Source of the DNA: Octopus sinensis
Lineage: Eukaryota
Direction of reading: 5' to 3'
NCBI RefSeq assembly: GCF_006345805.1
Contig: NC_043026.1
Location: 7,254,001-7,318,000, forward strand
DNA length: 64,000 bases
How positions within the stretch are numbered: the stretch's first letter is position 1; the number at the start of each line of letters is the position of its first letter. Positions 1,288 to 31,182 of the stretch are shown piece by piece. Under the pieces are notes generated by a model. The model ran no database searches and had not been told where the DNA came from. It saw nothing but the letters and a program-made list of their open reading frames with translations. Both the position numbers and the translations under genes were made by a program.

Positions 1288-4223
1288 GCATGTATATATA
1301 CATGTAGATGTAGGTATGTACATATATGTATGTGTGTATGCATATATTTTATTTATTAAATTATTGTATGACTGAGCGCGCTCATGTCGTTTCGTTTCAT
1401 TTCTTTTCTTCCAGTAAGTTTATATATATATATATATATATAAATTATATATATACATGTGTCCTCTTCTCTCTGGTTTTGTGTCCTGTCCATTCCACTT
1501 TGTCTTTTATATCACAGAAAGACATGATGGAATAGACGGGGCAAAACCAGAGAGAAGAGGAAATACGATGGACAGAAAGTTATTAAAAAGCTCACAGAAT
1601 GTGTGATGAAAGAACTAATAATAATTATAAAGCTAAAGTAAAAATCAAATAAACAGTGCGTGTATTTATCAACAAAATGATCGTCCCCAAATATAAAAAT
1701 ATCTATTTCAACACACGATTATACATCAAGAATTTTGCAAAACGAATACATAAATTATTATTGTTATTATTATTGGCGATGAAGAAAACAAAATGAAAAA
1801 TATTTTCGGAAAGTGATACGTAAAAAAAAATTCCAAAATCACTGCAGACCCTATTCGATCCCGGATCTCCTCTCACCAAAAGCTTGATGGTATATTAAAG
1901 TTTGCCTCCGTCACTGTTGCTGATAACGTGAACAGCTAAAGGGAGATAACTTCAGGCATTTTCATTTTGTTTCCTACAGTAGTTATTCCCCTTTCTTTTC
2001 TCTTTCCAGTTCTTTTTTTCTTTAGCTTTTTGGGCGATCAACTGGAAAGATCGATGACGCATGGAGGAGATTAACGATGCTGTCGACTACTCCTTTCCGT
2101 TTCTTTTGTTGTGAGTTTCTAATCGCGTCGATGGCAATGCTTTCGGTGATGTTGTCGATAAAATAAAATGGCATTCAACCGGATGATACAAGCGTGGCTG
2201 TGTGGTAGGAAGCTTGTTTACTAGCCACATGGTTCCGGGTTCAGTCCCACTGCGTGGCACCTCGGGCAAGTGTCTTCTGCTATAGCCCCGGGCCGACCAA
2301 TGCCTTGTGAGTGGATTTGGTAGACGGAAACTGAAAGAAGCCTGTCGTATATATATGTATATATACAAGTGTGTGTGTATGTGTTTGTGTTTTTGTGTTT
2401 GTCCCCCTAGCATTGCTTGACAACCGATGCTGGTGTGTTTACGTCCCCGTTACTTAGCGGTTCGGCAAAAGAGACCGATAGAATAAGTATGAGGCTTCCA
2501 AAGAATAAGTCCCGGGGTCGATTTGCTCGACTAAAGGCGGTGCTCCAGCATGGCTGCAGTCAAATGACTGAAACAAGTAAAAGAGTAAAAGAGAGAGTAT
2601 TCAAGCGGATGATACAAGCGTGGCTGTGTGGTAGGAAGCTTGCTTCCCGACCACATGGTTCCGGGTTCAGTCCCAATGCTTGGCACCTTGAACAAGTGTC
2701 GTCTATTGTAACCCTGGGAAGGCGTTGAGCAGAAAAGAAACGTTAGCACACCGGGCAAAATGCTTAGCAGTATTTCGTCTGTCGTTACGTTCTGAGTTCA
2801 AATTCCGCCGAGGTTGGCTTTGCTTTTCATTCTTTCAGGTAGATAAATTAAGTACCCGTTTCGCACTGGGGTCGATGTAATCAACTCAATCCCTTTGTCT
2901 GTCCTTGTTTGTCCTCTGTGTTTAGCCCTTTGTGGGCAATAAAGAAATATATTATAACCCTGGGAGGATCAAAGCCTTGTGAATGAATTTGGTTGATGAA
3001 ATCTGAAAGAAACCCGTTGTATGTATATGTGTGTGTGTGTGTTTGTCTGTGTTTGTCCTCCATGACTGCTTATCAAGCAGTGTTGGTGTGTTTACAGCCC
3101 TGTAACTTAGCAGTTCGGCAAAAGACAACTACAGAGTAAGTCGTTGTCATGTATTGTACGCCTGCTGTGCATTAATGATACACCAACAAAAGGTTTCCCA
3201 AGTGGTAAGTAGCTTGTTTACCAACCACATGGTTCTGGGTTCAGTCTCACTGCGTGGCACCTTGGGCAAGTGTCTTCTACTATAGCCTCGGGCTGACCAA
3301 AGCCTTGTGAGTGGATTTGGAAGACGGAAACTGAAAGAAGCTCGTCGTATATATATATATATATATGCGTTTGTGTGTCTGTGTTTGTCCCTCTAGCATT
3401 GCTTGACAACCGATGCTGGTGTGTTTACATCCCCGTTACCTAGCGGTTCGGCAATAGAGACCGATAGAATAAGTACTGGGCTTACAAAAGAATAAGTCCC
3501 GGGGTTGAGTTGCTCGATTAAAGGCGGTGCTCCAGCATGGCCGCAGTCAAATGACTGAAACAAGTAAAAGAGTAAAGAGTAAGCGTGCATTCTCCAGCTG
3601 CTTTACCATTCTTGTTCAATTAGTGCTTGATCTTGACCATTCATTGTAACCTTTGCCTGCCCCTTGGTCGACTTCCTTGCTCTACTCTTCCTTCCATGGT
3701 AATGTTTTCCATACAAAAATGGATGTGAATATATAAGAGTTCGAAACCTCTCATTTTCTTCTTCTGTCAAAGAAAATGTTCAAAGAAAGATGGTTGCATG
3801 TTGCGAGGGTGCTGGGAATGAAAGATTCCTCGTGAACATGTCATAAGTCATACAAAAGTTTCAGTAGGAGAATGGGGCTCGTGGGGTTGGAGCGTAAGCC
3901 ATCTCCCTGCTTCATCTCATGTCTGTATTTCGTCCTTGTTGTATCTCATTCGATTTCATTCGATTTCATTATATTTTGTAAAATTTTAAAAGTCATATAA
4001 TCATTGTGTGTCTGACCCCAATCAGGCTGTATTGTCCCTCTCTATGTTTGGGCCCTTGTGGCTAATAAAGAAATTGGATGTGAATATATAAGAGTTGTAC
4101 AAATGTGGTTACATCTTCTGTGATTGATGCTGAAACAGAAGAGAGTAAGAAATGCTCCTGTAGAGGTAGCAGTAATGGGTAAAAGCAAAGTGAGCTCGCC
4201 GTCCTCATTGCCTGGGTCTGCCC

Positions 4224-4295
4224 AAAAGAGGGAACAGCGAAAAGAGGGAGCAGCGAAAAGAGGGAGCAGCGAAAAGAGGGAGCAGCGAAAAGAGA
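4224..4295. repeat. 16-bp tandem repeat, about 4 copies
   Basis: unit AAAAGAGGGAGCAGCG. Confidence 0.9.
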
Positions 4296-4721
4296 GGAAG
4301 ATGCTTGACTGTCTAGGGTTTTTATACCACCCAAGTGGCAATGTCATTGCAGTGCCACCTACTGATGACAGAACGAGGGAGCATAACTCTGCCCGGTTCC
4401 TTTTAGCCTTTAAGGCCCTTGTTATACCACTCCCCCATTTGAGGAGGGGAACGTGTGTCACAAGATGAAAAGTTAGAGTTTGACAGAGACAGATTTTCTT
4501 TTATTCTTTTATATCTTTCAGTCATTTGACTGCGGCCATGCTGGAGCACCGCCTTTAGTCGAGCAAATCAACCCCAAGACTTATTCTTTGTAAGCCCAGT
4601 ACTTATTCTATCGGTCTCTTTTGCCAAATCGCTAAGTTACGTGAACGTAAACACACCAACATCAGTTGTCAAGTGATGGTGGGGGACAAACACAGATACA
4701 CAAACACACATATATATGTAT

Positions 4722-4780
<59 letters not shown>

Positions 4781-4827
4781 CTATGTATATATATATATGT
4801 ATGTATATATATGTATATATATTTATC

Positions 4828-4893
<66 letters not shown>

Positions 4894-5040
4894 GAAAGGT
4901 TTCTTTCAGTTTCCATCTACCAAATCCACTCGGCCTGAGTCTATAGTAGAAGACGCTTGCCCAAGATTCCTCACAGTGGGACTGAACCCAGAACCATGTG
5001 GTTGGGAAACAAGCTTCTTATCACTCAGCCACTCCAAAAA

Positions 5041-5330
5041 GTGATTCTGATCGGAGTTTGTTCCTTAAAAGCAGTCTTCAAACTGATAATTTAGGGGTTT
5101 TTTTACTGCTTAAACAGGGAGCTTATGCATGTATATGTCTTTGTGTGTGTACATCTCTCTTTGTATATAAGTGTGCTTATGTATGGGTATATGTATATAT
5201 GTGTATGTGTGGGTGTTGGTGTTTGTACATGCATCTGCTTACAATCAAAAACTCCCTATTTAAGTGGTAAAAACTCTAAATTATCAGTTTGAAGATTGCT
5301 TTCAAGTGAGAAACTTTGATCAGAGTCACA
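5041..5330. mobile_element. MITE-like element with imperfect inverted arms of about 80 bp
   Basis: gtgattctgatcggagttt...cttaaacagggag is mirrored by ctccctatttaag...aaactttgatcagagtcac; the arm also occurs inverted at 10444-10525. Confidence 0.6.
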
Positions 5331-6196
5331 TTCTGTAAACATCCAACTATTAAACAGGAACAATTATCAGAAAAGCCATTTCTATTCATTTTTTCAAATA
5401 TACCTGTGCCGGTGTCACATAAAAAGCACCATCCGAACGTGGCCGATGCCAGCACTGCCTTGACTGGCTTCTGTGCCAGTGGTACGTGACCTGCCGTGCT
5501 TGAGGAGACCTATTGAGTCAAGTACATCAACATCAAAATAAATATCAAATGGAAATTGTAGTTATGATACATGTGCCAGTGGCACATAAAAAGCACCATC
5601 CGAACGTGGGAGATCCCAGCCTCCTCTGGCCCCTGTGCCGGTGGCACGTAAAAAGCACCCACTACACTCACGGAGTGGTTGGCGTTAGGAAGGGCTTTCA
5701 GCTGTAGAAACACAGCCAGATCAGACTGGAGCCTAGTGCAGCCTCCTGGCTTCCCAGACCCTGGTCAAACTGTCCAACCCATGCTAGCATGGAAAACAGA
5801 CGTTAAATGATGATGATGTATGAACCGATTGTATGCAGGAATAAACTTCTTACAACTTTTTAACATCTTATCTTATCCATTTTTGACAAATATGATTGTA
5901 TTTATAGAACTTCATTCTTTAAATTAATCATATGCTTAATATACTAATTCTTATTATATTATACATGTATAGCACCCACTACACTCTTGGAATGGTTGGC
6001 GTTAGGAAGAGCATCCAGCTGTAGAAACAGTCAGATCAGATTGCAGCTGCTGGCTCTCCAGACCTCAGTCAAACCACCCAACCCATGCTAGCATGGAAAA
6101 TGGACATTAAACAATGATGATGATGATGATGATATATATATATATATATATATATATAAATGAAAAGAATGGAGTCGAATGAAGATTTTAACAAAA

Positions 6197-6295
6197 TTCC
6201 TTTACTTTCGACATATGTTTCGAAGACTGCATACTCTTAATTCCGAAGGAATGAAGGTTGCATTATGCCGTCTTCTCATCAGGAAATACAAGGAA
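6197..6295 (-). ncRNA. Type I hammerhead ribozyme, canonical core
   Basis: - strand: TTCCTTgtaTTTC-CTGATGA-GAAGAC...GTCTTC-GAAA-CATATG-TC-GAAAgtaAAGGAA; all core bases present, three stems, GUC cleavage triplet. Confidence 0.85.
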
Positions 6296-6451
6296 CCTCT
6301 ATCAGCCTATAAAAAAACACACAAATTTCCACACACGAACACGGGGTTCTGCCCTTGGCATGTAACTTCAACCGTGTTTTACTGACGTGAATTTGCTACC
6401 CAGATATCGATTAACCGAATTATCCATACTAGGATAATTCATTCACCTACT

Positions 6452-6486
<35 letters not shown>

Positions 6487-7111
6487 TAAAATGAGACAAC
6501 AAATCCAAGGCGATGTGGAATTTTTAGGACATTTATAAAGAGAAAGTGCCACACAGCGGGACTGAACCTGGAATCCTGTTTGTGTGTGTGTGTGTGTGTA
6601 TAGAGTGTTTGAAGTGGTGTACACATATTGTATATTGAGAAAAAGGTGTTAGAATTTTAGATAATTCTTTTTTTAACCAACTGAAATTACATGAGAAAGC
6701 ATTTTTATTTTTATCTTTTCTCTCCTTTTTTCTTCTTCTTTTTTTCTTTTTTTACATTTTCCTTTGTATACCTATCAACGCATTTTTTCACAAGGTCTCA
6801 TTGACCTTTCAAGATGTCAACTTCAGGAAGTACAATGGGAAAGAAAAGAAAAGAGAGGCGGGAGCGGCAGTCGTCACCAAAAAACAAACAAACAAAACAT
6901 TCCTATGGGAATGTATATTCCTTTACACTTGTATAGCCAAGGCCCATATTCTGTGTAATTTCAACTTTTGTACAAACAGAGATGAAATATTTGTGCAACA
7001 TTCATAAATTAGGAAACTAAAGTCAGTTCTGTTTATAATTTAACCTATTCTCTGTCTACATCTAATCAAACATCATCAATGAGTTGTGTATTGACATATA
7101 TATATTGTCTA

Positions 7112-7998: not shown

Positions 7999-8182
7999 TA
8001 AAAATCCCAATGTTATATGTAAATTCTCGGAGTGGTTGGCGTTAGGAAGGGCATCCAGCTGTAGAAACACTGCCAGATCTGACTGGACTGGTGCAGCTTT
8101 CGGGCTCCCCAGACCCCAGTTGAACCGTCCAACCCATGCTAGCATGGAAAGCGGACGTTAAATGATGATGATGATGATGATG

Positions 8183-8427
8183 ATAATCAAGAAAAAAGCA
8201 ACAAGAATGGATCGGTAGATTAGTACAATTGTTTCATACTATAAACATTTTATTTCAAGCTGCAAATATTACTGCAAATATAATGTCAAGTATTCATCAG
8301 CTAATTTAGCTGATGAATACTTGACATTATATTTGCTGTAATATTTGCAGCTTGAAATTAAATGTTTATAGTATGAAACAATTGTACTAATCTACCGATC
8401 CATTCTTGTTGCTTTTTTCTTGGTTAT
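8183..8427. repeat. Near-perfect 245-bp palindrome centred at 8305
   Basis: ataatcaagaaaaaagcaacaagaatggatcgg... is mirrored by ...ccgatccattcttgttgcttttttcttggttat, with a 1-nt spacer and few mismatches. Confidence 0.95.
8306..8390 (+). ncRNA. Type I hammerhead motif, mirrored on the - strand at 8220-8304
   Basis: TTAG-CTGATGA-ATAC...GTAT-GAAA-CAATTG-TA-CTAA. Confidence 0.7.
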
Positions 8428-8761
8428 AATCACCCCACATAATTTATGGTTAATACCATAAAGAATCTTGGTGCATCTAAGTTAAGTACCATATTCATTT
8501 GAATTCATTTGAATTCTTTTGAATCTTAATTATTTTTGCTGAAATTATATTTATATACATATATATATACACCCACCATCGCTTGACAACCAATTTTGGT
8601 GTGCTTATGTTCACCGTAACTTAACGGTTCAGCGAAAGAGACCGATAGAATAAGTACTAGGCTTACAAAGTCTAAGTCCTGGGGTTGATTGGTTTGACTA
8701 AAGGCAGTGCTCTAGCATAACCACAGTCATGTGAAAGAATAAAAGGGAATATATATAGATA

Positions 8762-29262: not shown

Positions 29263-29657
29263 TAATTCATATTGCATATCAGCCAGAGGTAGAGTGTTTA
29301 TTCAAATTTCTGTGGCTTTTTAAATAAAAAAAAAATACTTCATCTCTTTACTAAAGCAATAAATACTCTGAACATTAGAAGAGAATTTTTTTTTTCCATT
29401 TCTTCTGGTATGCAGTTGTTGAAAATTTCTGGGTACAAATGTACAAATTGAAATACAAAAGAATGAAATAATAAATGAATTTATGAATGAAAGTTTGGTA
29501 ATTGCATTTATCTCCCCCACGCGACACTTATTATTGCAAACATGTTCTAACTAACCTAAACTATACACATCTGAATGTCTGCTCCGGGTTGCCTTCATCT
29601 CAAGGTGCCCAAATTCCAGGTGGTCATTGCTAACCATTTCCCATTCCTCATTCACAG

Positions 29658-29809
29658 CATTATTGACCACGTTCCAGCCTCACACCGATATGGTCAACAG
29701 TCTGCGCCTCTGTGAACGTAACCAGTGTCCATTTATCGTCTCTGCCTCCTCCGACTCTACAGTGGTCATCTCACACATTAATGGACAACAGATCGGTGTC
29801 TTTGGTCAG
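29658..29809 (+). CDS. WDR49: WDR49-like exon 12
   Basis: cacag/gtgagt boundaries; LLTTFQPHTDMVNSLRLCE...IVSASSDSTVVISHINGQQIGVFGQ. Confidence 0.88.
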
Positions 29810-31182
29810 GTGAGTCTATCCATGCCTGCTTCTGTTTACCACAACCTGTATTATGTAGTGGCCAAGGCAACGAACCTAGGAGATGGAGAACTCTCATAGA
29901 AAAACCTGGGGCCTGTTGTTCACTGAGTTAGCAGCATTTCATCATCATCATCATCATCATTTAACGTCCGTTTTCCATGCTAGCATAGGTTGGACGGTTC
30001 AACCGGGGTCTGGGAAGCCAGGAGGCTGCACCAGGCTCCAGTCTGATCTGGCTGTGTTTCTACAGCTGGATGCCCTTCCTAACGCCAATCACTCCGTGAG
30101 TTTAGTGGGTGCTTTTTGTGCCACCAGCACAGATGCCAGGGGAGGCTGGCAGCAGCCACGATCAGTTGGTGCTTTTTATGTGCCACTGGCACAGGTATCA
30201 TAACTACAATTTCCATTTGATATTTATTTTGATGTTTATGTACTTGACTCAATAGGTCTCCTCAAGCACAGCAGGTCATGTGCCACCGGCACAGAAGCCA
30301 GTCAAGGCGGTGCTGGCATCAGCCACGTTCGGATGGTGCTTTTTACGTGCCGCCAGCACAAGTATCATAACTACAATTTCCATTTGATATTGGCACCAAT
30401 TTTCTGCTCTCAGCATTTCCATAATGGGTGGCTGGTCCTATATAAGTCTTCATCATTGGAAATGAATCATCTGTGTAGGTAGTCTTTAAAGAGACCCCTT
30501 CAATCATTAATGACCGTGGGATTGCACCCACAAAGTTCCCTTCCGAGGCACAAGTCCAGGCAAGGTTGTTTATGGAAGACCAGCAGTCCCCCATGCATAC
30601 CAGCCTCCCCCTCTTTATGCCACTGATGTTGTCCAAGGAAAAGGTAAAAGGGCCAATACAGCTTGGCACCTGTGATGTCACAAATCATTTCTACAGCAGA
30701 GTGAACTGGAGCAACGTGAAATAAAGTGTCTTGCTCAAGAACACAACATGTAGCCAGGTCCAGGAATTGAACTCACTACCTTAATGACTGAGCCCAACGT
30801 TCTAACCACTGAGCCATGCACCTTCACAGCAGTCTTAATGCCCATAATATTGACTGTTGAAGCTGACCAGAGAACCGTCTTAGGAGCAACCATGCTGCGT
30901 GGCAAGAAATTTGCTTCTTGGTTGCATGGTTCCAGCTTCAGTCCCATGGCACGACACCTTGGGCAAGTGCTTTCTACTTAAACCTTGGGCCAACCAAAAT
31001 TATACCCGAACCTGTGTCTTTGCGTATGTGTGTGTGTGTTTGTGTGTGTGCGCACACACATGTGTGTATGTGTATGTGACTGTGTGTGTGACTGAGTGTG
31101 TGCCTCTGTGTGTGTGTGACTGTGTTTGTGTGTGTGTGTGTGTATGTGTATATGACTGTGTGTGCCTCTGTGAGTGTGTGAC

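What the first reader, a model, noticed from the sequence alone, without database searches (positions are those of the whole stretch)
6197..6295. Intact, full-size type I hammerhead ribozyme
Every conserved core base is present, with a 6-bp GAAGAC/GTCTTC stem II that extends into further hairpins, a CATATG palindromic stem III, a GUC triplet, and a 4+6 bp stem I with a 3x3 internal loop of the type used for tertiary contacts. Predicted cleavage is between 6210 and 6209 on the - strand. It lies in a unit of about 300 bp between two (TA)n tracts, antisense to the WDR49 intron. It is the best candidate for an active ribozyme in the window.
Basis: partly seen in the sequence, partly recalled or inferred. 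Interest (0 to 1): 0.75.

Follow-up and report, generated by a model that had tools for sequence, protein, structure and literature searches.

The report
Retrotransposon-borne hammerhead ribozyme, truncated copy
The stretch is a complete hammerhead ribozyme motif, but it is one of more than two thousand copies carried in the tail end of a Penelope-like jumping gene, a kind of ribozyme already described, and this broken-off copy is probably inert.

Summary
The motif is real. On the minus strand, 6295..6197 holds every conserved hammerhead core base, helices I and II, a GUC triplet and a cut site after C6210. Rfam's type I model matches end to end but below threshold (19.2 bits against 34).

It is not a single-copy gene feature. 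The genome holds 2,232 exact matches to the core-anchored pattern and none to the reversed control. Subfamilies show compensatory changes in helices I and II.

Copies lie about 250-830 nt downstream of a 787-923 aa ORF. That ORF carries the motifs of Hydra-clade Penelope-like elements (reverse transcriptase plus C-terminal GIY-YIG nuclease). One element has the ribozyme in both 99%-identical flanking repeats.

Insertions are 5'-truncated, often paired head to head, end at two fixed points (about +55 and +205 from the cut site), and sit in (TA)n.

The window holds two such stumps joined at about 6308 between two (TA)n tracts.

Helix III is only 2 bp plus a palindromic AUAU loop. Cleavage is therefore predicted to need a two-RNA double hammerhead or protein help, as published for this class.

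Verdict: a new member of a known kind. Activity, expression and the WDR49 context are not shown.

The parts
6197..6295 (-). Whole type I hammerhead motif, from the distal end of helix I on one side to the distal end on the other
   Evidence: Direct reading. RF00163 match 6288..6204 at 19.2 bits. HHR-constrained fold -26.2 against MFE -28.4 kcal/mol.
6276..6282 (-). Core CUGAUGA (C3-A9)
   Evidence: Fixed by the search pattern in the 47 aligned copies, so its invariance there is by construction.
6222..6275 (-). Helix II. GAAGAC/GUCUUC (6 bp), a 1x1 mismatch, GCAU/AUGC, then a distal hairpin. 54 nt in all.
   Evidence: Proximal part 95.9% of cells paired, with 4 pairs changed on both sides. Distal part 74.7% paired, with 4 such pairs.
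6211..6221 (-). GAAA core followed by the ACAUAUGU palindrome. Helix III is 2 bp plus an AUAU loop in one RNA, and 8 bp between two RNAs.
   Evidence: The predicted dimer MFE (-64.2 against 2 x -28.4 kcal/mol) forms this 8-bp intermolecular helix.
6209..6210 (-). Predicted cleavage site, 3' of C6210 (GUC|G)
   Evidence: Position follows from the hammerhead consensus. Cleavage was not tested.
6149..6308 (-). 5'-truncated 3'-end copy of the retroelement. It carries the hammerhead and ends at the 'short' terminus next to (TA)n.
   Evidence: BLAST against reference copy L008:1207-1796: positions 287-446 match window 6308..6149 at 96%.
6308..6455 (+). Second, inverted stump joined head to head. It holds only the 'long tail' segment and ends ...CACCTACTTAA at 6454 next to (TA)n.
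   Evidence: BLAST: reference positions 443-590 match window 6308..6455 at 95%.
6132..6157 (.). (TA)13 flank, inferred target microsatellite
   Evidence: 88 of 89 copies have (TA)>=5 within 330 nt downstream of the cut site.
6455..6482 (.). (TA)14 flank on the other side

Best explanation
The stretch is a complete type I hammerhead ribozyme motif that belongs to the 3' terminal region (pseudo-LTR) of a high-copy Penelope-like retrotransposon, most likely of the Hydra clade, and the window's copy is a 5'-truncated stump that is probably inert.

Shown here:
- The motif, its copy number and its covariation.
- Its fixed position downstream of the element's ORF, and in both flanking direct repeats of one element with an open ORF.
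- Variable 5' truncation and head-to-head inverted partners.
- Two discrete 3' ends, and (TA)n flanks.

Inferred from these and from published work on Penelope-like elements:
- The element's RT-nuclease protein nicks (TA)n.
- It starts reverse transcription inside the RNA at one of two sites, about 55 or 205 nt downstream of the ribozyme's cut site.
- It can prime from both DNA strands, which would give two stumps joined at their 5' ends, as in the window.

Every inserted copy spans the cut site. The copied RNAs were therefore uncut at that ribozyme or had been rejoined.

Predicted: with a 2-bp helix III the RNA would cleave poorly alone. It would cleave as a double hammerhead, with two RNAs paired through ACAUAUGU, or with help from the element's protein. 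Its likely job is trimming multi-unit or read-through transcripts upstream of the ORF.

The window copy has no ORF (tblastn found none). Its 5' truncation leaves only about 13 nt upstream of helix I, so no element promoter is likely retained. It could act only if transcribed by chance.
For: **The motif is real and above chance**
- Motif read directly, with the Rfam type I model matched end to end.
- 2,232 exact core-anchored pattern matches against 0 for the reversed control.
- 47 matches at 95-100% identity from 40 scored of 1,818 first-look candidates, on many contigs.

**The structure covaries**
- On 47 distinct copies the named hammerhead structure has 85.5% of cells paired against 34-45% when partners are slid.
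- 10 pairs changed on both sides. 56 such cells against 26.2+-3.5 in shuffles, with 0 of 500 shuffles reaching the observed value.
- Example: pair 34-82 is A-U in 26 rows, G-C in 9 and G-U in 8.

**It is linked to an element ORF**
- L106 reads (TA)n, a 582-bp repeat with a hammerhead at 2910-2983, an 899-aa open frame at 3238-5934, a 99.1%-identical repeat with a hammerhead at 6531-6604, then (TA)n.
- L104 has a 787-aa frame, a hammerhead 560 nt downstream, and an inverted truncated copy upstream.
- 9 of 10 loci chosen by protein similarity alone carry the hammerhead region downstream on the ORF strand. 7 of these have an intact core.
- Window-type copies L018, L007 and L001 have the ORF's C-terminus upstream. 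L002 has its N-terminus 244 nt after the cut site.

**The ORF looks like a Hydra-clade PLE protein**
- RT motifs align with a Pfam-recognised RVT_1+GIY-YIG element of the same genome (BLASTP E=0.011).
- Protein-atlas neighbours at 0.96-0.98 carry GIY-YIG, HTH_animal, DUF8422 or RVT_1.
- By eye, P0002 shares motifs with the Hydra-clade proteins printed from the supplement of PMC8557442: SDKT, FIQFDIxxFYPSI, GLYRDD, NFLDVTL, VYQxKV...YVG, WRLKD, CxLCxxE and CPH.

**Insertion architecture**
- Of 89 copies, 48 have (TA)>=5 starting 46-80 nt after the cut site (mode 55) and 33 at 191-260 nt.
- 14 head-to-head pairs lie within 2.2 kb among the first 100 pattern hits, with no same-strand pair within 3 kb (counted by eye).
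- Junction points differ between loci.
- Published features of PLE insertions match: 5' truncation, an adjacent inverted truncated copy, a 'tail', hammerheads in pLTRs and a (TA)n bias (passages of PMC8557442).
- Published in vitro work matches too: both strands nicked and extended, two internal RT start sites downstream of the hammerhead, and a protein-assisted ribozyme not needed for insertion (PMC11167929, main text).

**Dimer reading**
- Predicted dimer -64.2 against -56.8 kcal/mol for two monomers, with the 8-bp helix III. The same holds for L104 and L106.
- In 8 of 9 hammerhead-like motif families met in this genome, the four bases inside helix III are a palindrome (AUAU, ACGU, AAUU twice, UCGA twice, GAUC twice). 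The descriptor did not ask for this.
Against: - The Rfam score is below the curated threshold, and there was no hit in the whole-window searches.
- RNAalifold on the 47 copies does not return the hammerhead fold. It gives 16 pairs at -4.15 kcal/mol and includes a rival hairpin across the cut site.
- The monomer hammerhead fold lies 2.2 kcal/mol above the MFE.
- The aligned copies were chosen by an exact core pattern, so core invariance in that alignment is by construction. The rows are also related copies, not independent lineages.
- Pfam finds no family in the 899-, 923- or 787-aa ORFs apart from chance-level rows.
- hhalign against canonical PLE ORFs of the same genome gives probability 0.25, E=0.24.
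- No solved structure matches by sequence.
- Clade placement therefore rests on motifs read by eye and on the atlas lead.
- The element is about 3.6 kb, against the '<3 kb' stated for Hydra elements, and no CxCX5C linker was seen.
- The 'tail' here is about 150 nt, not the published 30-40 bp.
- No cleavage, transcription or RNA-end evidence was obtained.
Confidence: 0.8

Rival explanations
1. It is a non-LTR retrozyme. That would be a short non-autonomous direct tandem repeat whose transcripts self-cleave at each hammerhead, are ligated into small circular RNAs, and are copied back by a borrowed reverse transcriptase.
For: - Type I hammerhead with a short palindromic helix III, low GC (window 40%), high copy number and no ORF in most copies.
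- PMC7229834 (passages) and the abstract of bioRxiv 10.64898/2026.07.22.740005 link such elements to PLE pLTRs.
Against: - The defining direct tandem arrangement is absent in the sample. There are 0 same-strand pairs within 3 kb among the first 100 pattern hits, while 14 head-to-head pairs occur.
- Copies run continuously into the element's own ORF in L018, L007, L001, L002, L089, L090, L104 and L106.
- 5' ends are variable rather than unit-length.
- Circular RNAs could not be looked for.
Confidence: 0.06
2. The family's hammerhead is a relic or a passenger. The motif is carried along by the retroelement but does not cleave usefully in vivo, even in intact elements.
For: - Every inserted copy spans the cut site, so templates were uncut there.
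- PMC11167929 reports that ribozyme mutants insert normally in vitro and that no RNA-seq reads end at the cut site.
- PMC8557442 notes that hammerhead-less PLEs proliferate well and that hammerheads may 'simply parasitize PLEs'.
- PMC4209133 reports low in vitro activity.
Against: - The core is kept exact in subfamilies whose helix II insert differs widely, with compensatory changes in helices I and II.
- A lineage with only 57% protein identity keeps the same architecture with a different palindrome, ACACGUGU.
- This pattern argues for selection on the fold in the master copies.
Confidence: 0.1
3. It is a host-recruited intronic ribozyme that cuts an antisense or intronic transcript of the surrounding gene to regulate it.
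For:
- One sub-threshold WD40-like ORF lies 23 kb away on the plus strand.
Against: - The 111-nt stretch is 100% identical at 6 other places and 95-99% identical at dozens more, as expected of a young transposon copy.
- It is flanked by the element's own ends and by (TA)n.
- No evidence of transcription was found.
Confidence: 0.02

Closest known systems
Hammerhead ribozymes in the pseudo-LTRs of Penelope-like elements (Cervera and de la Pena 2014, PMC4209133)
   Same: - A type I motif in the element's terminal repeat.
- A large helix II.
- A short helix III with a palindromic loop, implying a dimeric active form.
- Paired motifs 100-700 bp apart on opposite strands.
- Thousands of copies per genome (passages read).
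   Different: - Helix II here is far longer: 54 nt in three to four helical segments, against the 7-8 bp described.
- Helix III keeps 2 bp plus a 4-nt loop, so it is the 'canonical-like' rather than the 'minimal' form.
- Rfam's model scores it below threshold.
Hydra clade of C-terminal-endonuclease Penelope-like elements (Craig et al. 2021, PMC8557442), including the published Hydra-1_Obim family
   Same: - A single ORF with RT followed by a C-terminal GIY-YIG nuclease.
- The DKT motif, and CxxC and CxH around the conserved E and N.
- Insertion into (TA)n.
- Hammerheads present.
- Aquatic invertebrate hosts including molluscs (section 11 and supplement).
   Different: - The unit is about 3.6 kb, not <3 kb.
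- Direct pseudo-LTRs are present, whereas the supplement lists Hydra-1_Obim with 'no pLTR'.
- No CxCX5C linker was seen.
- The published Hydra-1_Obim hammerhead has a 7-bp helix II with an 8-nt loop and an acca/tggt helix III. It is a different ribozyme sequence.
- No tree was built here.
PAc (Poseidon of Anolis) in vitro system (Frangieh et al. 2024, PMC11167929)
   Same: - Two reverse-transcription start sites downstream of the hammerhead explain an optional 'tail'.
- AT-rich targets.
- Both DNA strands nicked and extended.
- The ribozyme needs protein and is dispensable for insertion (main text).
   Different: - Here the two ends lie about 55 and 205 nt after the cut site and before the start codon.
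- In PAc the cut site is inside the ORF and the sites are 111-118 nt into it.
- The tail here is about 150 nt, not 30-40.
- Nothing was tested biochemically here.
Metazoan non-LTR retrozymes and satellite hammerheads (newt, Schistosoma, mussel, coral; PMC7229834)
   Same: A type I hammerhead with a weak, palindromic helix III that works as a dimer, in low-GC repeats (passages).
   Different: Those are direct tandem arrays of 150-450 bp expressed as circular RNAs. This family is dispersed, head-to-head and continuous with an ORF.

Membership tests
Hammerhead ribozyme, type I (Rfam RF00163) | Conserved core CUGANGA ... GAAA ... UH with the cut 3' of H | tested here: met
   CUGAUGA 6282-6276, GAAA 6221-6218, GUC 6212-6210. 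The Rfam alignment covers model positions 1-45 of 45.
Hammerhead ribozyme, type I (Rfam RF00163) | Three helices around the core, with helix I open (type I topology) | tested here: met
   Helices read. The structure is 85.5% paired across 47 copies, against 34-45% in slid controls. Helix III is only 2 bp in one RNA.
Hammerhead ribozyme, type I (Rfam RF00163) | Score at or above Rfam's gathering threshold (34 bits) | tested here: not met
   19.2 bits, E=0.017 on 121 nt. No hit on the whole window or on 701 nt. The alignment shows a 50-nt insertion in helix II.
Hammerhead ribozyme, type I (Rfam RF00163) | Mg-dependent self-cleavage giving 2',3'-cyclic phosphate and 5'-OH ends | not testable with these tools
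   No raw RNA reads were available. The runs offered are kept as contigs and their RNA status is a guess.
Penelope-like element pseudo-LTR hammerhead | Motif lies in the terminal repeats flanking an RT + GIY-YIG ORF | tested here: met
   L106 has hammerheads in both 99.1%-identical direct repeats around an 899-aa frame. 9 of 10 protein-anchored loci carry it downstream. Met for the family; the window copy itself has no ORF.
Penelope-like element pseudo-LTR hammerhead | Insertion architecture: variable 5' truncation, an adjacent inverted truncated copy, an optional 'tail', and a microsatellite or AT-rich target | tested here: met
   The tail is about 150 nt here instead of 30-40 bp.
Hydra clade of Penelope-like elements | C-terminal GIY-YIG without CCHH, DKT in place of DKG, CxxC and CxH beside the conserved E and N, and a (TA)n target | tested here: met
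   Read by eye in P0002: SDKTRN, CNLCVSE, RCPHW, and no CCHH noticed. Compared with section 11 and the supplement of PMC8557442. (TA)n flanks.
Hydra clade of Penelope-like elements | Placement within the clade by RT/EN phylogeny, a CxCX5C linker, and length <3 kb | tested here: inconclusive
   No tree was built because published sequences could not be entered into the tools. No CxCX5C was seen. The unit is about 3.6 kb. Pfam and hhalign give no significant support.
Non-LTR retrozyme | Direct tandem repeats of a 150-450 bp unit, each with a hammerhead | tested here: not met
   No same-strand pair within 3 kb among the first 100 of 2,232 pattern hits. 14 head-to-head pairs occur instead. Only contig C1's first 123 Mb was listed.
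Non-LTR retrozyme | Expression as unit-length circular RNA | not testable with these tools
   No RNA holder is on record, and contigs cannot show it.

The most novel reading that the evidence does not exclude
The 54-nt helix II rod and the 8-nt palindromic helix III are not just ribozyme parts. They form the cis-acting handle of this retroelement lineage. The palindrome pairs two template RNAs, and the rod binds the RT-nuclease dimer. That pairing both switches the ribozyme on and sets up the twin, two-strand priming that leaves head-to-head stumps in (TA)n.
Probability: 0.1. Interest if true: 0.6.

Novelty: new member of a known kind. Interest (0 to 1): 0.3.

Why it matters
For the scan, this turns a "best active ribozyme candidate" into an ordinary transposon fragment.

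For the field it adds three things.
- A large, well-resolved hammerhead family: at least 2,232 core-intact copies in several covarying subfamilies. It is tied to a Hydra-type Penelope-like element that Pfam does not recognise and that Rfam's type I model scores below threshold. Standard pipelines would therefore miss both parts.
- A genomic counterpart to biochemistry done on one lizard element. The two sharply defined 3' ends and the frequent head-to-head pairs match the two internal reverse-transcription start sites and the two-strand priming reported for that element.
- Material for a direct test. The long covarying helix II and the palindrome kept across lineages offer a way to test whether these ribozymes work as RNA dimers.

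Tried and rejected
- **Rfam.** Nothing at gathering score on the whole window. At E<=10 on 5900-6600 only chance rows appeared and no hammerhead.
- **Window pattern scan.** The narrower one found 0 because helix II is longer than the gap allowed.
- **RNA evidence.** No RNA holder is listed. All 24 runs are kept as contigs and "RNA?" is a guess. Laying 4 runs showed only that the repeat is abundant under four organism labels. It gave no starts, ends or circular joints.
- **RNAalifold consensus.** It does not reproduce the hammerhead.
- **GIY-YIG search for a partner element.** The Pfam search returned 147 matches from 150 scored of 5,029 candidates. None of the 18 loci fetched from it shares its terminal region with this family except as a chance neighbour.
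- **Protein identification.** Pfam on the linked ORFs found no significant family. The PDB sequence searches found nothing relevant. hhalign against canonical PLE ORFs was not significant.
- **My early reading, withdrawn.** I first took the family to be a defined 590-bp non-autonomous unit with a constant 5' end. It was an artefact of using one truncated copy (L008) as the query. Other copies of the same subfamily run on into the ORF.
- **Depth peak.** The peak at the ribozyme's 3' half is not evidence of truncation at the cut site. That segment is simply the most conserved part of the family.
- **WDR49.** One sub-threshold WD40 row among 150 of 374 plus-strand ORFs. Minus-strand ORFs and shorter exons were not scanned.
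- **Earlier findings of this scan.** None by sequence or by place.
- **Literature for this exact family.** Three searches were run: "hammerhead ribozyme"+"Penelope-like", "hammerhead ribozyme"+"octopus", and Penelope/cephalopod/retrotransposon/hammerhead. No paper describing this ribozyme turned up. Repbase and the supplementary figures of PMC4209133 were not seen.

Full report
**1. The observation**

The minus strand of 6300..6190 reads as follows.
- GGUUCCUU-GUA-UUUC, then the core CUGAUGA.
- GAAGAC, a 42-nt insert, then GUCUUC.
- GAAA, then C-AUAU-G, then UC | GAAA-GUA-AAGGAAUU.

- Helix I is 6295-6290 with 6202-6197, and 6286-6283 with 6209-6206.
- The core is at 6282-6276 and 6221-6218.
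- Helix II is 6275-6270 with 6227-6222.
- GUC is at 6212-6210, so the cut falls between 6210 and 6209.

One correction is needed. CAUAUG cannot be a loopless hairpin. In a single RNA, helix III is two pairs (A6218-U6211, C6217-G6212) closing an AUAU loop. ACAUAUGU is an 8-nt palindrome.

**2. Is it more than chance?**

- Rfam finds nothing at gathering score in the window, nor at E<=10 in 701 nt.
- When only 121 nt are searched, Hammerhead_1 (RF00163) matches 6288..6204 over the whole model. The score is 19.2 bits (threshold 34), E=0.017, with a 50-nt insertion in helix II.
- A simple hammerhead descriptor gives 3 hits in the window against a mean of 0.04 in 200 dinucleotide-preserving shuffles. 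None of the 200 reached 3. With helix II of 6 bp or more, 1 hit is observed and 3 of 200 shuffles have any.
- The window's genome (2.72 Gb, 13,516 contigs) holds 1,101+1,131 exact matches to CTGATGAGN{44,64}CGAAACATATGTCGA. It holds none to the reversed pattern.
- The 111-nt stretch has 47 matches at 95-100% identity, from 40 scored of 1,818 first-look candidates. Seven are 100% identical, counting the window itself.

**3. Structure across copies**

The first 100 pattern matches show several subfamilies that differ in helix II and its insert. I fetched 40 places by their listed positions. With the window and L046 this gave 48 distinct sequences, of which I aligned 47. L050 was left out because its helix I side is replaced by unrelated sequence.

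On the hammerhead structure that I named:
- 85.5% of cells pair, against 34-45% when partners are slid by 1-3 columns.
- 10 pairs have changes on both sides.
- 56 cells carry such changes, against 26.2+-3.5 in shuffles (0 of 500 reach it).
- Pair 34-82 is A-U 26, G-C 9, G-U 8.
- Pair 35-81 is C-G 22, U-G 22, U-A 2.
- Pair 37-79 is G-C 24, G-U 18, A-U 5.
- Pair 13-108 is C-G 31, U-A 7.
- Pair 53-71 is U-A 30, C-G 14.

Caveats:
- The rows were selected by an exact core, so core invariance there is by construction.
- The rows are related copies, not independent lineages.
- One measure, further pair types, is below the shuffles (18 against 23.0).
- RNAalifold by itself does not return the hammerhead fold.
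- The 3x3 internal loop of helix I is not conserved. Column pair 18-103 is C-G in 22 rows and U-A in 9 of 47.

**4. Monomer or dimer**

- The single RNA's MFE is -28.4 kcal/mol. The hammerhead-constrained fold is -26.2.
- Two copies together are predicted at -64.2, against -56.8 for two monomers. The predicted structure is a double hammerhead, with an 8-bp intermolecular ACAUAUGU helix III and helix I formed in trans.
- The same is predicted for the ribozymes of L104 and L106.
- Of nine hammerhead-like motif families that my descriptor met in this genome, eight have a palindromic tetranucleotide inside helix III, although the descriptor did not ask for it. They are AUAU; ACGU; AAUU twice; UCGA twice; GAUC twice.
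- This is the published signature of metazoan type I and PLE hammerheads. They are thought to act as dimers and cleave poorly alone (passages of PMC4209133; PMC7229834).

**5. What carries it**

Copies end downstream at two discrete points, each abutting (TA)n. Of 89 distinct copies with enough flank:
- 48 have (TA)>=5 starting 46-80 nt after the cut site (mode 55).
- 33 have it at 191-260 nt.
- 7 have it elsewhere, and 1 has none within 330 nt.

Upstream ends vary from locus to locus. Many copies have an inverted partner joined at the 5' ends. Among the first 100 pattern hits I count 14 such pairs within 2.2 kb, always minus then plus. I count no same-strand pair within 3 kb.

I first took this for a 590-bp non-autonomous unit. 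That was an artefact of using the truncated copy L008 as the query.

Following longer copies upstream led to a 561-aa ORF (L089). Its relatives are very numerous: 57,499 first-look candidates, 97 matches from 78 scored, and open frames up to 923 aa.

Three sets of loci link the ORF to the ribozyme.
- Nine of ten loci picked by that protein alone carry the hammerhead region downstream on the ORF strand. Seven have an intact core, two have core mutations, and one lacks it within the flank.
- L106 shows the complete arrangement. It reads (TA)n, a 582-bp repeat with the hammerhead, an 899-aa open frame, a 99.1%-identical repeat with the hammerhead, then (TA)n. The repeats end 70 nt after the cut site.
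- L104 has a 787-aa frame, the hammerhead 560 nt downstream, and an inverted truncated copy upstream.

Copies with the window's own ribozyme variant are linked to the ORF as well. The ORF's C-terminus lies upstream in L018, L007 and L001. Its N-terminus lies 244 nt after the cut site in L002.

**6. What the ORF is**

The automated searches give little.
- Pfam finds nothing significant in it. The best row is RVT_1 at 14.9 bits, E=0.023, in L100.
- PDB sequence searches find nothing relevant.
- hhalign against canonical PLE ORFs of this genome (which do carry RVT_1 and GIY-YIG) is not significant.
- BLASTP aligns the RT core at E=0.011.
- The protein atlas puts it at 0.96-0.98 next to clusters carrying GIY-YIG, HTH_animal, DUF8422 or RVT_1. 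This is a lead only.

Read directly, the protein has these motifs:
- SDKT
- RLICPARSDIG
- FIQFDIASFYPSI
- FDVPMGSSDSAQIADLVGIYIL
- GLYRDD
- NFLDVTLNL
- At the C-terminus: VYQCKV...TYVG...RVSNH...WRLKD...CNLCVSE...CPHW

These are the same motifs, in the same order, as the Hydra-clade proteins printed from the supplement of PMC8557442. They also fit that paper's description of the clade: DKT for DKG, no CCHH, CxxC and CxH beside E and N, (TA)n targets, hammerheads present, and molluscs among the hosts (section 11).

Three things do not fit:
- The unit is about 3.6 kb, not <3 kb.
- No CxCX5C linker was seen.
- The published Hydra-1_Obim hammerhead is a different, short-helix-II motif.

I could not enter published sequences into the tools, so no tree was made.

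**7. The window's copy**

BLAST of the reference copy against the window gives two pieces that meet at about 6308.
- Reference positions 287-446 lie on the minus strand at 6308..6149. This piece has the ribozyme and the short 3' end, and abuts (TA)13 at 6132-6157.
- Reference positions 443-590 lie on the plus strand at 6308..6455. This piece is only the long-tail segment, and abuts (TA)14 at 6455-6482.

No ORF remnant is in the window. It is therefore a twin, heavily 5'-truncated insertion in a (TA)n microsatellite.

**8. How it most likely works**

Shown: the anatomy above.

Inferred, by analogy with the one PLE studied in vitro (PMC11167929, main text read) and with the structural descriptions in PMC8557442:
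- The RT-nuclease nicks AT-rich DNA on both strands.
- It starts reverse transcription internally at two sites downstream of the hammerhead.
- This would give the two 3' ends seen here, and head-to-head stumps when both strands prime.

Every inserted copy spans the cut site. The copied RNA was therefore uncut at that ribozyme or had been rejoined.

Predicted:
- The weak helix III keeps single RNAs intact.
- Cleavage occurs in RNA dimers or with the protein.
- Its likely function is to trim read-through or multi-unit transcripts upstream of the ORF.

The function of these ribozymes is stated as unclear in the literature, and I rate this last step at about 0.4.

**9. Rivals**

- A retrozyme with a circular-RNA cycle fails its defining tandem arrangement in the sample.
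- A relic or passenger motif is hard to square with the covariation and with the conserved architecture in a lineage at 57% protein identity. It cannot be excluded.
- Host recruitment has nothing in its favour.

**10. What was not achieved**

- RNA evidence: no listed run is on record as RNA, and all are kept as contigs.
- The WDR49-intron claim: one sub-threshold WD40 ORF among 150 of 374 plus-strand ORFs scanned.

**11. Verdict**

This is a real hammerhead motif of a known kind, the hammerheads of Penelope-like elements, in a newly characterised, very abundant family with an unusually long covarying helix II. The copy in the window is a dead fragment.

Earlier notes of this scan on other genomes reached similar readings for similar finds. 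I used them only as leads.

Noticed in passing
window 8224-8386 (both strands), inside the inverted repeat 8178-8304 / 8306-8432: A second, unrelated hammerhead-like motif in two head-to-head copies: CTGATGA, ATACT..AGTAT, GAAA, C-AATT-G, TA|CTAAT. Helix III is again an 8-nt palindrome, ACAATTGT. In the predicted fold, the helix I strand and core pair with the other arm of the inverted repeat instead.
   Followed up: partly
L106:2473-6674 (G000:C4): One element of a related lineage (57% protein identity) has an open 899-aa frame and 99.1%-identical 582-bp direct repeats, each with a hammerhead. It is flanked by (TA)n on both sides. The repeats' similarity suggests a young insertion.
   Followed up: partly
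P0002 (L106:3238-5934), L104:3000-5360, L105:3088-5856: Pfam-A finds no significant family in these 787-923 aa RT + GIY-YIG-like ORFs, although the protein search had 57,499 first-look candidates in the genome. Standard domain annotation would leave a very abundant retroelement protein unnamed.
   Followed up: partly
L046:5521-5553, L034:2621-2678, L039:943..886, L045:6629..6560, L104:635-730: Other hammerhead-like motifs near canonical (Pfam-recognised) Penelope-like ORFs. Each has a palindromic helix III (ACTCGAGT, ACGATCGT or ACAATTGT).
   Followed up: no
window 5663-5818, 5980-6122, 8020-8173: Three copies (69-90% alike) of a roughly 150-bp SINE-like repeat ending in (GAT)n. One of them abuts the left (TA)n of the finding (families D6 and D8).
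   Followed up: no
window 4224-4303: A 16-nt tandem repeat, AAAAGAGGGAGCAGCG, in about 5 copies (family D9).
   Followed up: no
window 29555-29896 (+): An ORF with a sub-threshold WD40 match (18 bits against a cut-off of 27, E=0.0044). It is the only hint of a WD-repeat gene found in the window.
   Followed up: no
alignment A1 columns 84-88 with 97-101 (window 6224-6220 with 6211-6207, minus strand): RNAalifold predicts an invariant rival hairpin, UUCGA/UCGAA, that would bury the cut site. It could be an inactive conformer competing with the hammerhead fold.
   Followed up: no
L091:1246-5154: A 1,303-aa open frame with RVT_1 (101 bits) and a weak zf-RVT match. It is a LINE-like element next to one hammerhead copy.
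   Followed up: no
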